This document shows, piece after piece, positions 27,090 to 32,000 of a DNA stretch of 32,000 nt. Position 1 is the stretch's first letter. Each line of letters begins with the position of its first letter. The DNA comes from an uncultured Planctomycetia bacterium. GTDB lineage: Bacteria; Omnitrophota; Gorgyraeia; Duberdicusellales; 4484-171. The position numbers and the translations under genes are program-made. The stretch covers positions 54,686 to 86,685 of the forward strand of contig CAZHYN010000004.1 in NCBI GenBank assembly GCA_964536865.1. Direction: 5' to 3'. The notes under the pieces are model-generated. The model was not told the origin of the DNA. It saw nothing but the letters and a program-made list of their open reading frames with translations, and searched no databases.

Positions 27090-27211
27090 TGTTATTTGAT
27101 AATGTAAAAACTTAGCGATAGAAGCAGAAACTTAACCGTTTATCTGGAGGAACAGAATTAAATTTAAAAACAAATTGAAAACCAAAGAAGCCGATAAAAG
27201 GTTATTTCTTC

Positions 27212-27240
27212 TTGTTAGGGCAAACTTAAGCAGGTAAAAT
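27212..27240 (+). promoter_or_regulatory. Possible promoter for tRNA-Arg (TTGTTA-17 nt-TAAAAT)
   Basis: Hexamers at 27212-27217 and 27235-27240. The tRNA starts at 27267. Confidence 0.35.
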
Positions 27241-27301
27241 ATTAGGTAAAGGTTATTTGACAATTTGCGCCCGTAGCTCAATAGGATAGAGCATCTGCCT
27301 T

Positions 27302-28050
27302 CTAAATGAGGCACAGCAATCCTGATTTTCGGGATTGCCTAGCCGAATTTGGTCCTGTAAATGAGTAAAGCGAATTTTACGGGCCAAAGTTGGGAGCCTC
27401 TATGCGGAAATGAACGCATAGAGTGGATGCGGCTGTATGCAAGGAAGTCCTCCTTTTCTTAAGGAAAAGGATGGATCACTTGCAGGAAACCTTTATATCC
27501 AAGGGCAGAGGCAAAATTTAAAAGGAAAGGAGGTGAGAGTGCATCATACAAAGGTCAAAGCGGATATAGGGTTTGCAAATGTTATTTCTGATTTAGTAGA
27601 AAAAGGATATGTGCCTTGTATTCCCATTTCTGAGCACCAACATTACGACTTACTAGCGGTGTTAAAGGATGGGGAGGTTGTAAAGATTCAAGTAAAATAT
27701 GCGCATCTTAAAAAGAATGGTACTATTGAGGTGAAGTTCAGAACAAGTTGGGTGGATAAGAAAGGAATTCACACTCGACGCTATAAAGAGGAAGATTTCG
27801 ATTACTACGCTATCTATTGCCCTGAGAAAAGGAAGGTATTGTATGTACCTAATGCTCCTAATTGCCCAAAAGCTATTCGCTTTGACAAACCTGGCAACAA
27901 TCAGAGTAAGTACATAAAATGGGCCTCTGCTTACTTTGATATAAGGGGATCCTCAGAGACTATACGCCGCAGGCCTGAGATGGCCAAGACATAGTCCAGA
28001 CCACAATCCCGATATGTTTGTCGGGAGCCGAAGAAATTCGGAGTGGTAAG
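27302..28050 (+). mobile_element. Group I intron (IC3-like tRNA intron), 749 nt, ORF-containing
   Basis: The 5' exon ends in U27301, which pairs as U.G with G27308 in P1 (27297-27301 with 27308-27312). Other helices: P2 27316-22/27332-38; P3 27428-33/27966-71; P4 27439-43/27479-83 with a GAA/CA internal loop; P5 hairpin 27447-76; P6 27490-93/27501-04. J6/7-P7 reads CAGAGACUAUACG. P7 is 27958-63/27991-96 and P8 is 27972-75/27982-85. A GAAA-capped hairpin lies at 28028-41 and the terminal G is at 28050. Confidence 0.8.
27539..27994 (+). CDS. Intron-encoded PD-(D/E)XK-type homing endonuclease (I-Ssp6803I-like family)
   Basis: GGAGG at 27529-33 lies 5 nt before GTG 27539, giving a 151-aa product. 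The pattern KADIGFANVISDLVEKGYVPCIPISEHQHYDLLAV...VVKIQVKY...DFDYYAIYCPE...LYVP fits the small PD-(D/E)XK endonuclease fold (D ... QVK). The ORF terminates at a TAG inside P7'. Confidence 0.7.
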   Translation: MHHTKVKADIGFANVISDLVEKGYVPCIPISEHQHYDLLAVLKDGEVVKIQVKYAHLKKNGTIEVKFRTSWVDKKGIHTRRYKEEDFDYYAIYCPEKRKVLYVPNAPNCPKAIRFDKPGNNQSKYIKWASAYFDIRGSSETIRRRPEMAKT

Positions 28051-28208
28051 CTAAGCAGAGGGTTGCAGGTTCGAGTCCTGCCGGGCGCGGGATTGATTTC
28101 AATATCGTAACTTTGTCTTTAAAATTAGGATTTAGTTATTTTAGTGCGGTAGGCATCTCGGAACAAATAGATACCAGAGGCTACTGCGACTTTGTCGCAG
28201 ATTTGTTA

Positions 28209-28226
28209 CGAGTCCTGCCGGGCGCG
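28209..28226 (+). repeat. Direct 18-nt duplicate of the tRNA-Arg 3' end (att-like)
   Basis: CGAGTCCTGCCGGGCGCG at 28209-28226 is identical to 28072-28089, the T-loop/acceptor 3' strand of tRNA-Arg. Confidence 0.85.
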
Positions 28227-28265
28227 TAATTTCATAGCGTCTAGCAGATAGGAGGTTAGAAGTAG

Positions 28266-29522
28266 ATGAAGAAATTTATTGTTTTTATAGTAGGTTTTGT
28301 ATTTGTTTTAATAGGGATATACCTCGCCGTATACATATTCATAAATACCCAAGGAAAGAAGTTATTTTTAGATTTCTTAAAGAAAAAGTATCACACTGAA
28401 GCCCAACTGGAGAGTTTAAAGCTTAGCTTCCCTTTTCGTCTCACTTTAAAAAATTTTAATTATCAAGATGTATCCTTCTCTCAGGCTAAAGTTACTCTGA
28501 TAGGCATAAATCCTTTTAATTTATCCTTTATTTTAACTGACATTTATGTAGAGAATTTATCCCTTAATATGGAAGGAAAGGATAAAGGATTTGTCATCAA
28601 GCCTTTTCTGGATACAACCAGTGGGTTTTCTACTGAAAAAAAGCTACTGCCAAGAAAATCCCTATCAAAACAAAAAAATACTCAAAAAAAGAATGTTTCT
28701 TTTATAGCTAAAAAACTCTTTTTAAAAGATGCTACGGTTAATCTAAGGACCAAATTGAGAAATTTACCTCTCACTGTTAGCTTTAAGGATTTAAATTTAA
28801 AAGTTAGGGGCCTTTGTTATCCTAAACTTTCTAAGTTTTATTTTGAATTAACTTCTTCTTTGGAGGCAGAAGAAAAACTTATGAAAGATTTCATAAACGC
28901 AAAAGGATGGGTTGATTGGAACAAAAAAGATATGGATGTGGTCATCCATTTAGTTGGCTTTGACTATTTAGCTTTCAGTAGTTACTATCCCCCCTTCTGG
29001 AGGCCAGAAAATTTACAGCTAAAAGAAGCTTTCCTTTCTTTGGATGCTTTGTTAAACTCAGTAAATAACGATTTAACTATCAATGCTACTCTCTATTTAG
29101 ATAAATTTTCCTTTGTGGATAATCCTCAAGAACCTTCTAGGGTTGAGTCTTTAAAAACTTTGATTGCTCTGTTTAAGAAAGACAAAGAATCTAAACCTAC
29201 TCTGCATTTCCCTCCTATAAAGACCAAGATGGATAAACTAGAGTTGGATTTATCTTCTATTTGGGAGGAGATTCAAAAGAAAGTAAAGGTGAGTTTTTTA
29301 AACACGGTGATTAGATTTTTAGGTAAAACACCTGAATTTTTAGGTAAAGGGACAGAGGAAATAAAGAAGATGAGTATAGACCCCGCAGTAGAAGCATTAA
29401 AGGGGGTTGTGGATATTATTAAGGGATTGATTATTCCTTCTCCGCAAGAGAATCCTGAAGAGGGGGGAAAAGAAGGCGAAAAAAAATTTTACCTTCCCGA
29501 CCTATTTAAGATAGAATATTAA
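28266..29522 (+). CDS. Hypothetical membrane-anchored protein (single N-terminal TM, Lys/Asn-rich)
   Basis: 418-aa ORF. GGAGG lies 8 nt upstream of the ATG. The N-terminal hydrophobic helix is FIVFIVGFVFVLIGIYLAVYIFI. I recognise no catalytic motif. Confidence 0.65.
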   Translation: MKKFIVFIVGFVFVLIGIYLAVYIFINTQGKKLFLDFLKKKYHTEAQLESLKLSFPFRLTLKNFNYQDVSFSQAKVTLIGINPFNLSFILTDIYVENLSLNMEGKDKGFVIKPFLDTTSGFSTEKKLLPRKSLSKQKNTQKKNVSFIAKKLFLKDATVNLRTKLRNLPLTVSFKDLNLKVRGLCYPKLSKFYFELTSSLEAEEKLMKDFINAKGWVDWNKKDMDVVIHLVGFDYLAFSSYYPPFWRPENLQLKEAFLSLDALLNSVNNDLTINATLYLDKFSFVDNPQEPSRVESLKTLIALFKKDKESKPTLHFPPIKTKMDKLELDLSSIWEEIQKKVKVSFLNTVIRFLGKTPEFLGKGTEEIKKMSIDPAVEALKGVVDIIKGLIIPSPQENPEEGGKEGEKKFYLPDLFKIEY

Positions 29523-29528
29523 TTCTAG

Positions 29529-29549
29529 TGGTGGGCGTAGCTCAATCTG
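29529..29549 (+). repeat. Direct 21-nt duplicate of the tRNA-His 5' end (att-like)
   Basis: TGGTGGGCGTAGCTCAATCTG at 29529-29549 is identical to 29680-29700, covering G-1, the acceptor 5' strand and the D arm. Confidence 0.85.
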
Positions 29550-29570: not shown

Positions 29571-31193
29571 TCAAGTCAGAGACGAAGAAAAATTATTTAG
29601 TCGAATTGAATCCCGATGAGCGAAGCGACATCGGGAGGGCTCAAATTTAGATTTACGCTTTGATACTTTGACTGATAGATGGTGGGCGTAGCTCAATCTG
29701 GTTAGAGCACTTGACTGTGGCTCAAGATGTTGGGGGTTCGAATCCCCTCGCCCACCCCAATTTTTAATTTGGCTATTTTTGAGCAAAAAGGAATAGGGTA
29801 AATTATAGGAAAATAATAACTTAGCGTCAGAGAGCCGAAAGTTCGAGCCAATCTTTTTGAAAAATTCCCGTTTTTCTTCTAAACTTCCCTTAGTTGCTAT
29901 GTAACTGGCTTGGCCACAAGATATTACAAAATTTCGAGCCAGTTCGAGCCAAACTTTACCTCTACTTTCAAGATAAGTCAATTTTTCTTTTATCTCTAAC
30001 TTCTCATTTAGGAGAGATGATTTCTTTTTTTTGTATTCTTCCTCACTAATAACTTGATTTAGATAAGCATCTAAGAGAATATTTAGTTTTTTATCTATTT
30101 CACCAATTCGGTTATTGAGGAAAGAGATAGAGAAGGAAGTTGTAGAATTTGTCGACTCTTCATCAATCATTTTAAGCAAAAAATTTTTAAGATCATTCTC
30201 TATGGAAACTTTCTTAATTGCTTCATTTATTTGTTCAACGAGCACCTCCTCACGCAAAAATGGTTCATCGCATTTGCCTTTCTTTTTTGTACAACGATAA
30301 TAAATATACTTTTGTTTTTGGATCTCAGAAGTTATCATTCCACCACATTTACCACATCGGATAAAGCCTCGAAAGACATGATAATGAGGTCCATTTTTGC
30401 GGGGTTTACTTCGTAAATTAAAAACCTTCTGTACCTTATCAAAAAGCTCTTTGGTAATGATAGGTGGATGAGTGCCTTCGTAAAGTTGTCCCTTAAAGAC
30501 AAAAGCACCATAATAGAAAGGATTTTTGAGGAGACGTTCAATATTACTTTTACTTAATTTTCCTCGTTTTCTTCTACTGGCCAAGCCAGAGGCAGTCGCC
30601 AATTTTCTTAGGTCATCTAAAGAGTATCTGCCTGTAGCATAAAGTTCAAAAAGTTCTTTTACCTTTCCAGACACTTCAGGATCAATCTCTATAGTATGGT
30701 TAACAGTGTTATTCTTATAACCAAGGGGAGCAAAGCCAGGATATTCGCCTCTTCTTAGTTTTTCTCTTATTCCTCTCTTAGTGTTTTCGCTTAAGTTATC
30801 TACATAATATTTAGATTGTCCAAAAATTATGTTAAGTATAAATTTACCTTGGGCATTGTTATCGAAGCGATAGGTAGGAAATCTCAAGTCGATAATCTTT
30901 CCTATATCTATAAGATAAATAATCTTTCCTCCATCAATAGAGTTTCTTGCTAATCTATCCGGATGCCAGGCAATAATTCCTTCTGCTTTTCCTTGCTCTA
31001 TTAGCTCAATCATTCTATTAAATATAGGTCGTCCTGGTGATTTTGCAGTTTTTGCCTCTTGAAATTCATCCACAACTATTAATCCTTCTTTTTGAGCAAA
31101 TTCACGACACTCAGTTATCTGGGATTGAATAGAGAGGACTTGTCTGTCTTCTGAATCTATGGACTTACGGGCATAGATAAAATATTTAATCAT
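29571..31193 (-). CDS. Large serine recombinase (resolvase/invertase catalytic domain, recombinase domain, zinc ribbon, coiled coil)
   Basis: N-terminus FIYARKSIDSEDRQVLSIQSQ with the catalytic Ser, then WHPDRLARN. Zinc ribbon CGKCGG...YYRCTKKKGKC, followed by a Lys/Glu-rich coiled coil. The last ~60 codons are antisense to tRNA-His (GDSNP comes from the T-arm), so the C-terminal tail is probably junction-derived. Confidence 0.85.
   Translation of the reverse strand: MIKYFIYARKSIDSEDRQVLSIQSQITECREFAQKEGLIVVDEFQEAKTAKSPGRPIFNRMIELIEQGKAEGIIAWHPDRLARNSIDGGKIIYLIDIGKIIDLRFPTYRFDNNAQGKFILNIIFGQSKYYVDNLSENTKRGIREKLRRGEYPGFAPLGYKNNTVNHTIEIDPEVSGKVKELFELYATGRYSLDDLRKLATASGLASRRKRGKLSKSNIERLLKNPFYYGAFVFKGQLYEGTHPPIITKELFDKVQKVFNLRSKPRKNGPHYHVFRGFIRCGKCGGMITSEIQKQKYIYYRCTKKKGKCDEPFLREEVLVEQINEAIKKVSIENDLKNFLLKMIDEESTNSTTSFSISFLNNRIGEIDKKLNILLDAYLNQVISEEEYKKKKSSLLNEKLEIKEKLTYLESRGKVWLELARNFVISCGQASYIATKGSLEEKREFFKKIGSNFRLSDAKLLFSYNLPYSFLLKNSQIKNWGGRGDSNPQHLEPQSSALTRLSYAHHLSVKVSKRKSKFEPSRCRFAHRDSIRLNNFSSSLT
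29681..29759 (+). tRNA. tRNA-His (anticodon GUG) with encoded G-1 and CCA
   Basis: G-1 plus acceptor GTGGGCG/CGCCCAC, D arm GCTC-AATCTGGTTA-GAGC, anticodon stem CTTGA/TCAAG with loop CTGTGGC, T arm GGGGG-TTCGAAT-CCCCT, discriminator C, CCA. Confidence 0.9.
29754..29845. repeat. Left copy of a perfect 92-bp inverted repeat (partner 31858-31949)
   Basis: The reverse complement of 29754-29845 equals 31858-31949 at every position checked by hand. A further 15-bp block, 29847-29861, matches 31811-31825. Confidence 0.9.
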
Positions 31194-31660
31194 TTTTTAC
31201 TGCCAAATATTTCTATCAGATCTACCACTGCAACTGTTGTCCAACACAGAATTGTTATTATTAAACTTATCCACCCATAGTTAGTTTTTTTTGACCAGAT
31301 GTCTACCTCTTCAAAAGTTGTTACAGGCTCAGTTCGTTTATTATTGGCTAAGTAACGAACAACACCTATCATTGTGAACTTATCGTGCGTTTGAATTTTA
31401 TCTTTAACAATATATGTTATCGAATCCGGACTGATATTCTTGGGAGGAGGAAAATCCGATAGAAATTTTTCGAAACCAGGAGTTTCTCTAGGAATTCCTC
31501 CTTCAGAATATCGTATTAGCTGGGCAAGGTGTAATTTCTCTTTGTCTGCAAAGAAACCTAACAGATTAAAGAATGATGCGAGTAATGCAATAAATCCAAC
31601 TAATAAGCCAACTAATTTTAGTTTGCTTTTCAGCTTCATTAGGCTAGTGCTCAAAAGCAT
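31190..31660 (-). CDS. Small two-TM membrane protein, translationally coupled to the serine recombinase
   Basis: 156-aa ORF with hydrophobic helices near both termini (LVGLLVGFIALLASFFNLLGFF and WISLIITILCWTTVAVVDLI). Its stop overlaps the recombinase ATG (ATGA). Confidence 0.55.
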   Translation of the reverse strand: MLLSTSLMKLKSKLKLVGLLVGFIALLASFFNLLGFFADKEKLHLAQLIRYSEGGIPRETPGFEKFLSDFPPPKNISPDSITYIVKDKIQTHDKFTMIGVVRYLANNKRTEPVTTFEEVDIWSKKTNYGWISLIITILCWTTVAVVDLIEIFGSKK

Positions 31661-31810
31661 TCATATAATATAGAATAACAAGCTAATTATATACTATTTA
31701 TATACTATTGGGAAAGTCTGGGCAATCCCCCTTCTATTTATTTGAAAATTGGCGACTGCCTTTTTATCCCGAAATTTCGTGATAAATTTACATAGCAACT
31801 CTCTTTTTTT

Positions 31811-31949
31811 TTCAAAAAGATTGGCAAAAACAAAGTTTTTATTTTGCTTCGCAAAAACGAACTTTCGGCTCTCTGACGCTAAGTTATTATTTTCCTATAA
31901 TTTACCCTATTCCTTTTTGCTCAAAAATAGCCAAATTAAAAATTGGGGT
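31811..31949 (+). pseudogene. Inverted, partial duplicate of the 3' end of the serine recombinase gene (includes the right 92-bp repeat)
   Basis: It encodes ...NFRLSDAKLLFSYNLPYSFLLKNSQIKNWG, identical to recombinase residues. Upstream homology is broken by a 32-nt insertion at 31826-31857 that shifts the frame. No recombinase body lies upstream. Confidence 0.6.
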
Positions 31950-32000
31950 CGCCTATGCGACCAAATTCTAACCTATTTCAAAGAGAAATATAAATGACTT

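What the first reader, a model, noticed from the sequence alone, without database searches (positions are those of the whole stretch)
29754..31949. Self-contained 2.2-kb cassette: large serine recombinase plus membrane protein, bracketed by perfect 92-bp inverted repeats at tRNA-His
The sequences 29754-29845 and 31858-31949 are exact reverse complements, with a further 15-bp block beyond a 32-nt indel. Large serine recombinases normally act on short (~40-50 bp) att sites and leave no long repeats. IS607-type serine transposons have no terminal inverted repeats. The architecture therefore fits neither a standard integrated prophage or ICE end nor a known serine-IS. It recalls the Hin H-segment, where the invertase gene lies inside its own invertible segment. 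It differs in using a 540-aa recombinase and repeats long enough for homologous recombination too. Perfect identity over 92 bp implies a very recent origin or ongoing exchange. Three candidate interpretations remain: a self-inverting switch, a new terminal-inverted-repeat serine-recombinase transposon targeting tRNA-His, or two nested element ends.
Basis: partly seen in the sequence, partly recalled or inferred. Interest (0 to 1): 0.75.

Follow-up and report, generated by a model that had tools for sequence, protein, structure and literature searches.

The report
Split-integrase island end at tRNA-His
The 92-bp inverted repeat is real. It marks the tRNA-proximal end of a small mobile island whose serine integrase cuts inside its own gene when it inserts into tRNA-His, and which keeps a spare, inverted copy of that cut site. 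The layout recurs in most of 166 related loci from uncultured bacteria, and I found no published description of it.

Summary
The perfect 92-bp inverted repeat (29754-29845 / 31858-31949) is real and abuts tRNA-His. It is not the two ends of a 2.2-kb cassette.

The same layout recurs in 166 related loci from Omnitrophota, Patescibacteria and other phyla:
- 140 have a 41-198-bp near-perfect repeat. One arm is the last codons of a large serine recombinase gene and runs about 6 nt into the 3' end of a tRNA gene.
- The other arm lies upstream of the gene. It continues into a conserved 15-20-codon tail that gives the recombinase ORF a proper stop.
- In 39 loci a second copy of the tail region, kilobases away, marks the far end of a 2.5-9.5-kb island.
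- In 14 islands aligned by hand, the three junctions align as attL, an intact attP and attR. The common core is usually 4-10 nt and lies at the tRNA 3' end (positions 71-76).

So the window holds the tRNA-proximal end of an integrated island. Its attP lies inside the recombinase ORF, and it carries an intact, inverted spare attP. The rest of the island lies beyond the contig end.

No flipped form appeared among 77 integrated loci, so a switch is unsupported. I found no published description. The role of the spare copy is unknown.

The parts
29682..29759 (+). tRNA-His (GTG), intact. It acts as the B-type half of the integration junction. Its last 6 nt (29754-29759, ACCCCA, positions 71-76) are shared with the island arm.
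   Evidence: ARAGORN and Rfam 68.4 bits. The antisense T-loop motif TTCGAAC (29736-29742 on +) starts 11 nt from the repeat end, as in 36 of 62 family loci (9-11 nt in 51).
29754..29864 (-). Left arm: the P-type arm of the attL-type junction. It is the last ~36 codons of the recombinase gene: 92 nt perfect, 1 nt, then an 18-nt block.
   Evidence: It encodes ..FFKKIGSNFRLSDAKLLFSYNLPYSFLLKNSQIKNWG, which is conserved in homologues. The Trp codon is the complement of the tRNA CCA.
29754..31193 (-). Large serine recombinase, conserved part (480 aa). The open frame runs on to 29571 through antisense tRNA-His, giving the 540-aa ORF.
   Evidence: Pfam Resolvase, Recombinase and Zn_ribbon_recom. 6710 homologues. 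Alignment. An AF2 model of homologue P0088 matches SPbeta, phiC31, Bxb1 and LI integrases.
31190..31660 (-). 156-aa ORF with two hydrophobic stretches. It overlaps the recombinase start by 4 nt and is a variable passenger of the recombinase module.
   Evidence: No Pfam, PADLOC or NCBIfam hit. A 98%-identical element (L082) carries an unrelated 185-aa gene at this place.
31686..31714 (-). Promoter-like site upstream of the 156-aa ORF and recombinase (consensus match only).
   Evidence: TTCCCA-17-TATAAT, 10 of 12.
31808..31949 (+). Right arm: the arm of the intact, inverted spare attP copy. It consists of an 18-nt block, a 32-nt insertion and 92 nt perfect.
   Evidence: The same position and orientation recur in 140 of 166 family loci.
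31950..32000 (+). T region of the spare attP. It is in frame with the arm, encodes the conserved recombinase tail RLCDQILTYFKEKYK* (stop at 31995-31997), and carries the motif TTCTAAC at 31966-31972. It continues at least 211 nt beyond the window to the contig end.
   Evidence: Flank conservation. In-frame tails. nhmmer hit at 31944-31989. The motif starts 16 nt from the repeat end. Contig extension.
29529..29549 (+). 21-nt duplicate of the 5' end of tRNA-His. It is not part of the island and probably a scar of another event at this hot spot.
   Evidence: Repeat family D2. Absent from the related contig L082.

Best explanation
The window shows the tRNA-proximal end of a small integrative island driven by a large serine recombinase (LSR). 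The island is inserted in the 3' end of tRNA-His.

Shown by comparison:
- In this family the element-side attachment site (attP) lies inside the 3' end of the recombinase ORF. It sits between the ..W-x codons, where the Trp codon is the complement of the tRNA CCA, and a conserved 15-20-residue C-terminal tail.
- Crossover occurs within the last nucleotides of the tRNA gene, about positions 71-74.
- Integration therefore splits the ORF. The gene body plus the 'arm' stays next to the tRNA and now reads into antisense tRNA, which gives the 540-aa ORF. The island sequence rebuilds the tRNA 3' end. The tail goes to the far end of the island.
- Every island also carries a second, intact copy of the whole attP region (arm + tail + downstream sequence, 230-480 bp where fully seen). 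It lies inverted, just upstream of the recombinase promoter.
- The '92-bp inverted repeat' is the homology between the arm at the tRNA junction and the arm of this spare copy. Identity stops exactly at the crossover point because one copy has been cut there by integration.

Inferred:
- The tRNA T-loop (TTCGAAC, 11 nt from the junction) and the same motif in the tail region (16 nt from the junction) are the zinc-ribbon-domain recognition motifs of the attB-type and attP-type half-sites.
- The two attP copies are kept identical by gene conversion.
- The rest of this island (cargo, second tail copy, attR) lies beyond the contig end.

Not known: what the spare copy is for. My leading guess is that it keeps an intact recombinase 3' end and attP available. 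For example, rare homologous inversion between the arms could rebuild the full-length gene. About 0.25.
For: 1. The repeat and the tRNA junction are real.
2. Many homologues end at ..NWGG, at or just past the point where the tRNA junction lies here, or read into antisense-tRNA peptides.
3. 140 of 166 related loci have the same arm repeat (median 100 nt; 58 at 100% identity). 87 have a tRNA of 11 amino-acid types at the 3' arm.
4. The flank outside the upstream arm is conserved family-wide. It is in frame with the arm and varies at synonymous third positions. At least 14 of 103 single-length database proteins end with this tail.
5. 39 loci have a second near-perfect repeat. Its inner arm abuts the upstream arm and its outer arm lies about 1-7.5 kb away, giving islands of 2.5-9.5 kb. 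Triple alignments of 14 of them read as attL / intact attP / attR, with a common core of 4-10 nt in 12 of them (13 and 18 nt in the other two).
6. TTCGAAC starts at offset 9-11 on the tRNA side in 51 of 62 loci and at offset 14-16 on the tail side in 44 of 55 (modes 11 and 16). This matches ZD-motif positions 11-19 in attB and 16-24 in attP of the LI integrase (PMC3783163).
7. The fold is that of serine integrases.
8. Mobility is recent. The same element (98.35% DNA identity) sits at tRNA-His in a host whose neighbouring gene product is only 39% identical.
9. Evolution of the copies is concerted. Arms differ by 0-26% between related islands (six informative pairs) but are about 100% identical within an island.
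10. Cargo is typical of islands: XRE regulator, type I R-M, GmrSD, methyltransferase + ATPase.
Against: - For this particular island the far end (attR) and the cargo are not seen. The contig stops 262 nt after the spare junction. Two attempts to reach the longer 86.7-kb contig failed, as did a search for the T region in JGI metagenomes.
- No empty tRNA-His site and no excised circle were observed for any family member. Recombination activity is untested.
- The arm (P half-site) shows no TTCGAAC motif, so the sites are very asymmetric.
- Tandem arrays (L019, L170) imply recombination of attP with a hybrid site. Canonical serine integrases do not do this.
- If the two attP copies are identical, it is unexplained why only the in-ORF copy is ever found recombined (77 versus 0).
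Confidence: 0.85

Rival explanations
1. Self-inverting switch (Hin-like). The recombinase, or host homologous recombination, flips the 2-kb segment between the arms. This toggles the recombinase between a tail-less form that reads into the tRNA and a full-length form, and changes what its promoter drives.
For: The segment is flanked by long identical inverted repeats. Flipping would join the gene to an intact conserved tail. Tail-bearing proteins exist in databases. Some contigs break exactly at the arms even where the arm is shorter than the assembler's k, e.g. L085.
Against: 0 of 77 integrated loci with both flanks readable have the tRNA next to the upstream arm. The few tail-bearing loci with readable flanks are tail/tail forms that look like tandem arrays, not flipped forms. 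The predicted flipped protein of this element is not in the collection. The contig runs through both arms in one orientation.
Confidence: 0.1
2. A 2.2-kb terminal-inverted-repeat transposon encoding a large serine recombinase that targets tRNA 3' ends.
For: In many loci the distance from arm to arm is only ~1.6-1.8 kb and holds just the recombinase. Several contigs span only the recombinase and its arms, about 1.6-2.1 kb (L039 runs exactly arm to arm; L086 begins and ends inside the arms).
Against: The outer flank of the upstream arm is conserved and coding across the family, so it belongs to the element. Nucleotide similarity between related elements runs 30-350 bp past that arm. attR junctions lie kilobases away. 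The short contigs are explained by assembly breaks at repeats.
Confidence: 0.03
3. The right arm is the leftover end of a second, degraded element that inserted head-to-head.
For: The right copy carries a 32-nt insertion and has no gene body. Tandem arrays occur in the family.
Against: The same inverted partial copy, at the same place and about 100% identical to the resident gene end, is present in 140 of 166 loci across phyla. It co-varies with the gene copy. A random relic would vary in extent and would decay.
Confidence: 0.02

Closest known systems
Large serine integrases of phages and islands (A118/LI, phiC31, Bxb1, SPbeta SprA)
   Same: Same domain set and predicted fold. Short site-specific junctions. 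The same motif lies 5 bp further out in the element-side half-site than in the host-side half-site, as described for LI integrase.
   Different: The target is the 3' end of tRNA genes. To my knowledge that is the usual territory of tyrosine integrases (the Islander abstract, seen, says so). attP lies inside the integrase ORF. Each element carries a second, inverted, intact attP of 230-480 bp. The islands are tiny (2.5-9.5 kb) and are rare in viral contigs (5 hits).
Phage Mx8 IntP/IntX (Myxococcus, tyrosine integrase)
   Same: attP lies within the int coding sequence, so integration gives int a new 3' end (PMC6070905). From memory, its attB sites are in tRNA-Asp genes.
   Different: Tyrosine recombinase, and no inverted spare copy of attP.
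Archaeal 'suicidal' SSV-type integrases
   Same: The attachment site lies within the integrase gene, so the gene is partitioned on integration (PMC8371274).
   Different: They are tyrosine recombinases, described in that review as exclusive to archaea. Here only the last 15-20 codons are removed, and a spare 3' end is kept.
Yeast 2-micron plasmid FLP/FRT (from memory)
   Same: The excised circle predicted here would have two long inverted repeats, each holding the recombinase target. They would divide the circle into two unique segments, one of which encodes the recombinase.
   Different: FLP is a tyrosine recombinase that flips the segments for copy-number amplification. No flipping and no replication function is shown here.
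Hin/Gin invertible segments
   Same: The recombinase gene lies between inverted repeats.
   Different: Those are small serine invertases with 26-bp sites and an enhancer, and both orientations are readily seen. Here the enzyme is a large serine recombinase and no flipped form was seen in 77 loci.

Membership tests
Large serine recombinase / serine integrase | N-terminal resolvase-type catalytic domain with the active-site serine | tested here: met
   PF00239, E = 2e-22. R9, K10 and S11 are invariant in 50 sequences.
Large serine recombinase / serine integrase | Recombinase domain, plus a zinc-ribbon domain with an inserted coiled coil | tested here: met
   PF07508 and PF13408. Four invariant Cys. 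Long helical hairpin at 331-411 in the AF2 model. Foldseek probability 1.00 to SPbeta, phiC31, Bxb1 and LI integrases.
Large serine recombinase / serine integrase | attP/attB/attL/attR junction set with a short common core, and the ZD motif 5 bp closer to the centre in attB | tested here: met
   Triple alignments in 14 islands. Motif offsets 11 versus 16, against PMC3783163.
Large serine recombinase / serine integrase | Catalyses attP x attB recombination with a 2-bp staggered cut | not testable with these tools
   Needs an expression and recombination assay.
IS607-type serine transposon | Small transposase with an N-terminal DNA-binding domain and a C-terminal catalytic domain; the element has no long repeats | tested here: not met
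   NCBIfam IS607 model scores 24.6 bits against a cut-off of 110. The domain order is catalytic domain first.
Hin/Gin-type invertible segment | Both orientations of the segment occur | tested here: not met
   0 of 77 loci flipped. The flipped protein is absent from the collection. Read-level data were not available.
SCCmec Ccr / XisF / TnpX-type LSRs | Scores above the curated family cut-off | tested here: not met
   CcrB 106.6 against 900, XisF 96.5 against 375, CcrA 75.7 against 700.
Integrative island at a tRNA gene | The island restores the tRNA 3' end, and the displaced fragment marks the far end | tested here: inconclusive
   Met in related islands, where the core (T)GGNNN is present at attR. 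For the window, only the restored tRNA end is visible, because the far end lies beyond the contig.

The most novel reading that the evidence does not exclude
The spare inverted attP / 3'-end copy is a DNA-encoded reset for a 'suicidal' bacterial serine integrase.
- Integration through the in-ORF site removes the C-terminal helix and locks the island in.
- Rare homologous inversion between the arms rebuilds the full-length enzyme, which then excises the island. That would explain why flipped forms are never caught.
- Directionality would then be set by DNA configuration and the integrase tail, rather than by a separate directionality factor.
Probability: 0.2. Interest if true: 0.8.

Novelty: new variant of a known kind. 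Interest (0 to 1): 0.62.

Why it matters
- Both attachment sites can be read directly from genomes. The host site is the conserved 3' end of tRNA genes. That is unusual for serine integrases and may be useful for genome engineering.
- It extends 'integrase gene split by its own integration' from archaeal tyrosine enzymes and phage Mx8 to bacterial serine enzymes.
- It raises a concrete, testable question. Why does every island keep an identical inverted second attP, and why is only the in-gene copy ever used?
- It explains a practical nuisance. Contigs from candidate-phyla bacteria often break at these tRNA-linked recombinase genes.

Tried and rejected
- Reaching the rest of this island failed. 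Look-ups by the recombinase and by both start variants of the 156-aa protein returned only the 43-kb contig that ends 211 nt past the window, plus a 2-kb contig bounded by the arms. The 86.7-kb NCBI contig was never shown.
- An exact-pattern scan of JGI metagenomes for the T region found nothing.
- A look-up of the predicted flipped (495-aa) protein found nothing.
- Circularity tests on eight element-sized contigs found no terminal overlap.
- I found no shared motif between the arm half-site and the host-side flank at attR.
- Rfam found no intron or other RNA family in the interrupted tRNA region 27150-28300.
- PADLOC, Pfam and NCBIfam gave nothing for the 156-aa protein.
- Seven literature searches found no description of this family or of a duplicated inverted attP. 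Two of them were aimed at background papers rather than at this family.
- The AF2 model shows the tail as a helix at moderate confidence. I could not extract where it docks.
Full report
**1. The observation**

The sequence holds a perfect 92-nt inverted repeat, 29754-29845 and 31858-31949 (confirmed at 100% by blastn).
- An 18-nt second block follows (29847-29864 / 31808-31825). In the right copy it is separated from the main repeat by a 32-nt insertion.
- tRNA-His (GTG) lies at 29682-29759. The repeat includes its last six bases, ACCCCA.
- Between the arms, on the minus strand, are a 540-aa ORF and a 156-aa ORF. The 540-aa ORF has Resolvase, Recombinase and zinc-ribbon domains. The 156-aa ORF has two hydrophobic stretches and no family match.
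- The window comes from a 43-kb MEGAHIT contig that ends only 211 nt beyond position 32000. Those 211 nt are not a mirror image of the element.

**2. The left arm is coding sequence**

A search of 5.8 billion proteins found thousands of relatives, mostly from Omnitrophota and Patescibacteria.
- In an alignment of the closest ones, most (12 of 19) are about 480-487 aa long. Several end at ..NWGG, at or just past residue 480 of the query, which is exactly the tRNA junction.
- Others continue into peptides such as GDSNPRP, the well-known translation of antisense tRNA.
- So the last 60 residues of the 540-aa ORF are read-through of antisense tRNA-His.
- The left arm is the last ~30 codons of the recombinase gene. 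Its Trp codon is the complement of the tRNA CCA.

**3. The layout is a family trait**

I fetched 80 loci from GTDB representative genomes and 80 from JGI metagenomes, plus a few others. Each was analysed with tblastn, ARAGORN and self-blastn.
- Of 166 loci, 140 have an inverted repeat of 41-198 nt (median 100). 58 are at 100% identity and 103 at 97% or more.
- One arm is the 3' end of the recombinase gene. The other lies 50-250 bp upstream of its start.
- Most of the 26 loci without the repeat are cut by contig ends.
- In 87 loci a tRNA gene of 11 amino-acid types lies convergent with the recombinase. Its 3' end is overlapped by about 6 nt of the arm.
- The repeat occurs in assemblies made with several different assemblers and in a complete genome, so it is not an artefact.

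**4. The flank outside the upstream arm belongs to the element**

Read outward from the arm, this flank is conserved across the family and in frame with the arm. The pattern is ..W-x | x-x-L-(N/D/E)-(K/E)-(I/V)-R-T-(F/Y)-F-(K/Q).., followed by a stop within 15-25 codons and often a hairpin.
- Third codon positions vary (CGA/CGG/AGA, ACN, TTC/TTT). That pattern indicates selection on the peptide.
- In the window the tail is RLCDQILTYFKEKYK* (31950-31997).
- At least 14 of 103 single-length database homologues end with this tail.
- An AlphaFold model of one of them shows the tail as a C-terminal helix (residues 496-510, pLDDT about 77).
- So gene body + arm + tail is the complete recombinase ORF. 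The upstream arm plus tail is an intact, inverted copy of the end of that gene.

**5. The three junctions are attL, attP and attR**

A nucleotide profile of the tail region found a second copy on the opposite strand, about 1.1-7.7 kb further upstream.
- It appears in 31 of 65 loci that have more than 3 kb of sequence upstream of the arm.
- Self-comparison shows that this copy is one arm of a second near-perfect inverted repeat (40-385 nt). Its inner arm abuts the upstream arm and overlaps it by a few nucleotides.
- I aligned three junctions in 14 islands: arm|antisense-tRNA, arm|tail (internal) and host|tail (distal).
- The first junction shares its left half with the second. The third shares its right half with the second.
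- All three share a core, (T)GGNNN, of 4-10 nt in 12 of the 14 islands (13 and 18 nt in the other two). The core is the complement of the tRNA 3' end. The shortest cores cover tRNA positions 71-74.
- This is the signature of site-specific integration: attL, an uncut attP and attR.
- Across the 39 loci that have the second repeat, islands are 2.5-9.5 kb.
- Cargo usually starts with a small XRE regulator next to the internal tail. It also includes type I restriction-modification, GmrSD, a methyltransferase with an ATPase, oxidoreductases and unknowns.

**6. Fit with serine-integrase site recognition**

The heptamer TTCGAAC (one mismatch allowed) behaves differently on the two sides.

| Side of the junction | Offset from the repeat end | Loci |
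|---|---|---|
| tRNA side (antisense T-loop) | 9-11 nt, mode 11 | 51 of 62 |
| Tail side | 14-16 nt, mode 16 | 44 of 55 |

- Rutherford et al. (PMC3783163) showed for the LI integrase that the zinc-ribbon-domain motif occupies positions 16-24 in attP half-sites and 11-19 in attB half-sites.
- The window fits: TTCGAAC lies 11 nt into antisense tRNA-His, and TTCTAAC lies 16 nt into the tail region (31966-31972).
- I therefore read the tRNA as the B-type half-site and the tail region as a P-type half-site.
- The arm half-site and the host flank at attR show no such motif, so the sites are strongly asymmetric.

**7. Mobility and concerted evolution**

- A contig from another sample (L082) carries the same element at tRNA-His. 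DNA identity is 98.35% over recombinase and tRNA. The neighbouring host protein is only 39% identical. This indicates recent horizontal transfer.
- In L082 the recombinase is broken into two ORFs, and a different small gene replaces the 156-aa ORF.
- Between related islands the arms differ by 0-26% (six informative pairs). The two copies within an island are about 100% identical and diverge in step.
- The window's two arms share 10 differences from the L082 arm, although the gene bodies differ by only 1.65%.
- The two attP copies are therefore homogenised, presumably by gene conversion. Whole attP modules also appear to be exchanged between elements.

**8. What the finding is**

- The left arm is the P arm of the attL-type junction at tRNA-His.
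- The right arm is the P arm of the island's intact spare attP.
- The identity ends at 29754 / 31949 because that is the crossover point.
- The 2.2 kb is the recombinase module of a larger island, not a self-contained cassette.
- The cargo and attR of this island are not in the contig. The contig ends 262 nt after the spare junction, which is within the range of the tail-region repeats (40-385 nt) that break assemblies elsewhere.

**9. The rival readings**

- Switch. It predicts loci with the tRNA next to the upstream arm. None was found among 77 integrated loci with both flanks readable. The predicted flipped protein of this element is not on record.
- Tail/tail loci. Five loci have tails on both sides (L024, L084, L135, L167, L170). 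L170, like L019, looks like a tandem array of islands, in which one island's arm is joined to its neighbour's tail.
- 2.2-kb transposon. It is excluded by the conserved outer flank, by similarity that runs past the arm and by the distant attR junctions.
- Relic of a second element. It is excluded by the constancy and co-variation of the spare copy.

**10. What remains open**

- The function of the spare attP is unknown.
- It is also unexplained why only the in-ORF copy is ever found recombined when the two copies are identical.
- One option is selection for integrants whose integrase has lost its tail, giving a locked state. Rare homologous inversion would then act as a reset.
- A second option is autoregulation, with the integrase binding upstream of its own promoter.
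- A third option is a role in the excised circle, which would resemble the 2-micron plasmid.
- None of these was testable here.

**11. Comparison with known systems**

- The enzyme is a large serine integrase by domains and fold. It does not reach the cut-offs of Ccr, XisF or IS607 models.
- An attP inside the integrase gene is known for phage Mx8 (PMC6070905) and for archaeal 'suicidal' integrases (PMC8371274). Both are tyrosine enzymes, and neither has a spare copy.
- In seven literature searches I found no paper describing tRNA-targeting serine integrases of this family or an inverted duplicate attP. Two of those searches were aimed at background papers.
- I rate it a new variant of a known kind.

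Noticed in passing
window 27267-28231: A tRNA gene appears to be split. The 5' half is at 27267-27305 (anticodon loop cttctaa, Arg-TCT-like) and the matching 3' half at about 28050-28094. About 750 bp lie between them and encode a PD-(D/E)XK endonuclease (27437-27994, PF11645). A further copy of the 3' fragment lies at 28209-28231. ARAGORN and Rfam do not call it, and no Rfam intron family matches.
   Followed up: partly
window 29529-29549: A 21-nt exact duplicate of the 5' end of tRNA-His lies 151 bp upstream of the gene. It is absent from the related contig L082. It may be a scar of another element at this tRNA.
   Followed up: partly
proteins P0015-P0030, P0032, P0096: 17 of the 120 best homologues are longer than 700 aa (mostly 817-932 aa), from Parcubacteria-type genomes. 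In most of them a complete recombinase is fused, after its arm region, to a second recombinase that lacks the first ~120 residues.
   Followed up: no
L019:1-4664; L170:5529-8506: These look like tandem arrays of islands at one tRNA. The arm of the distal island is joined to the tail of the proximal island, which completes the distal recombinase ORF. Forming such arrays needs recombination of attP with a hybrid site, which canonical serine integrases avoid.
   Followed up: partly
P0008 vs P0012; L043/L045, L020/L046: Elements whose gene bodies are 85-92% identical have 100% identical arms. Two proteins share an identical C-terminal ~90 residues but differ elsewhere. This suggests exchange of the attP / 3'-end module between elements.
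   Followed up: partly
L082:151-2204: The same island in another host has a broken recombinase (75-aa + 397-aa ORFs) and an unrelated 185-aa gene where the window has the 156-aa membrane-like ORF.
   Followed up: partly
window 31947-31962 and 29802-29830 / 31873-31901: A hairpin, GGTCGC-CTAT-GCGACC, spans the spare junction. Each arm contains an outward-facing promoter-like site (CTGACG-17-TATAAT). In the spare copy that site points into the tail region and the cargo. Both are consensus matches only.
   Followed up: no
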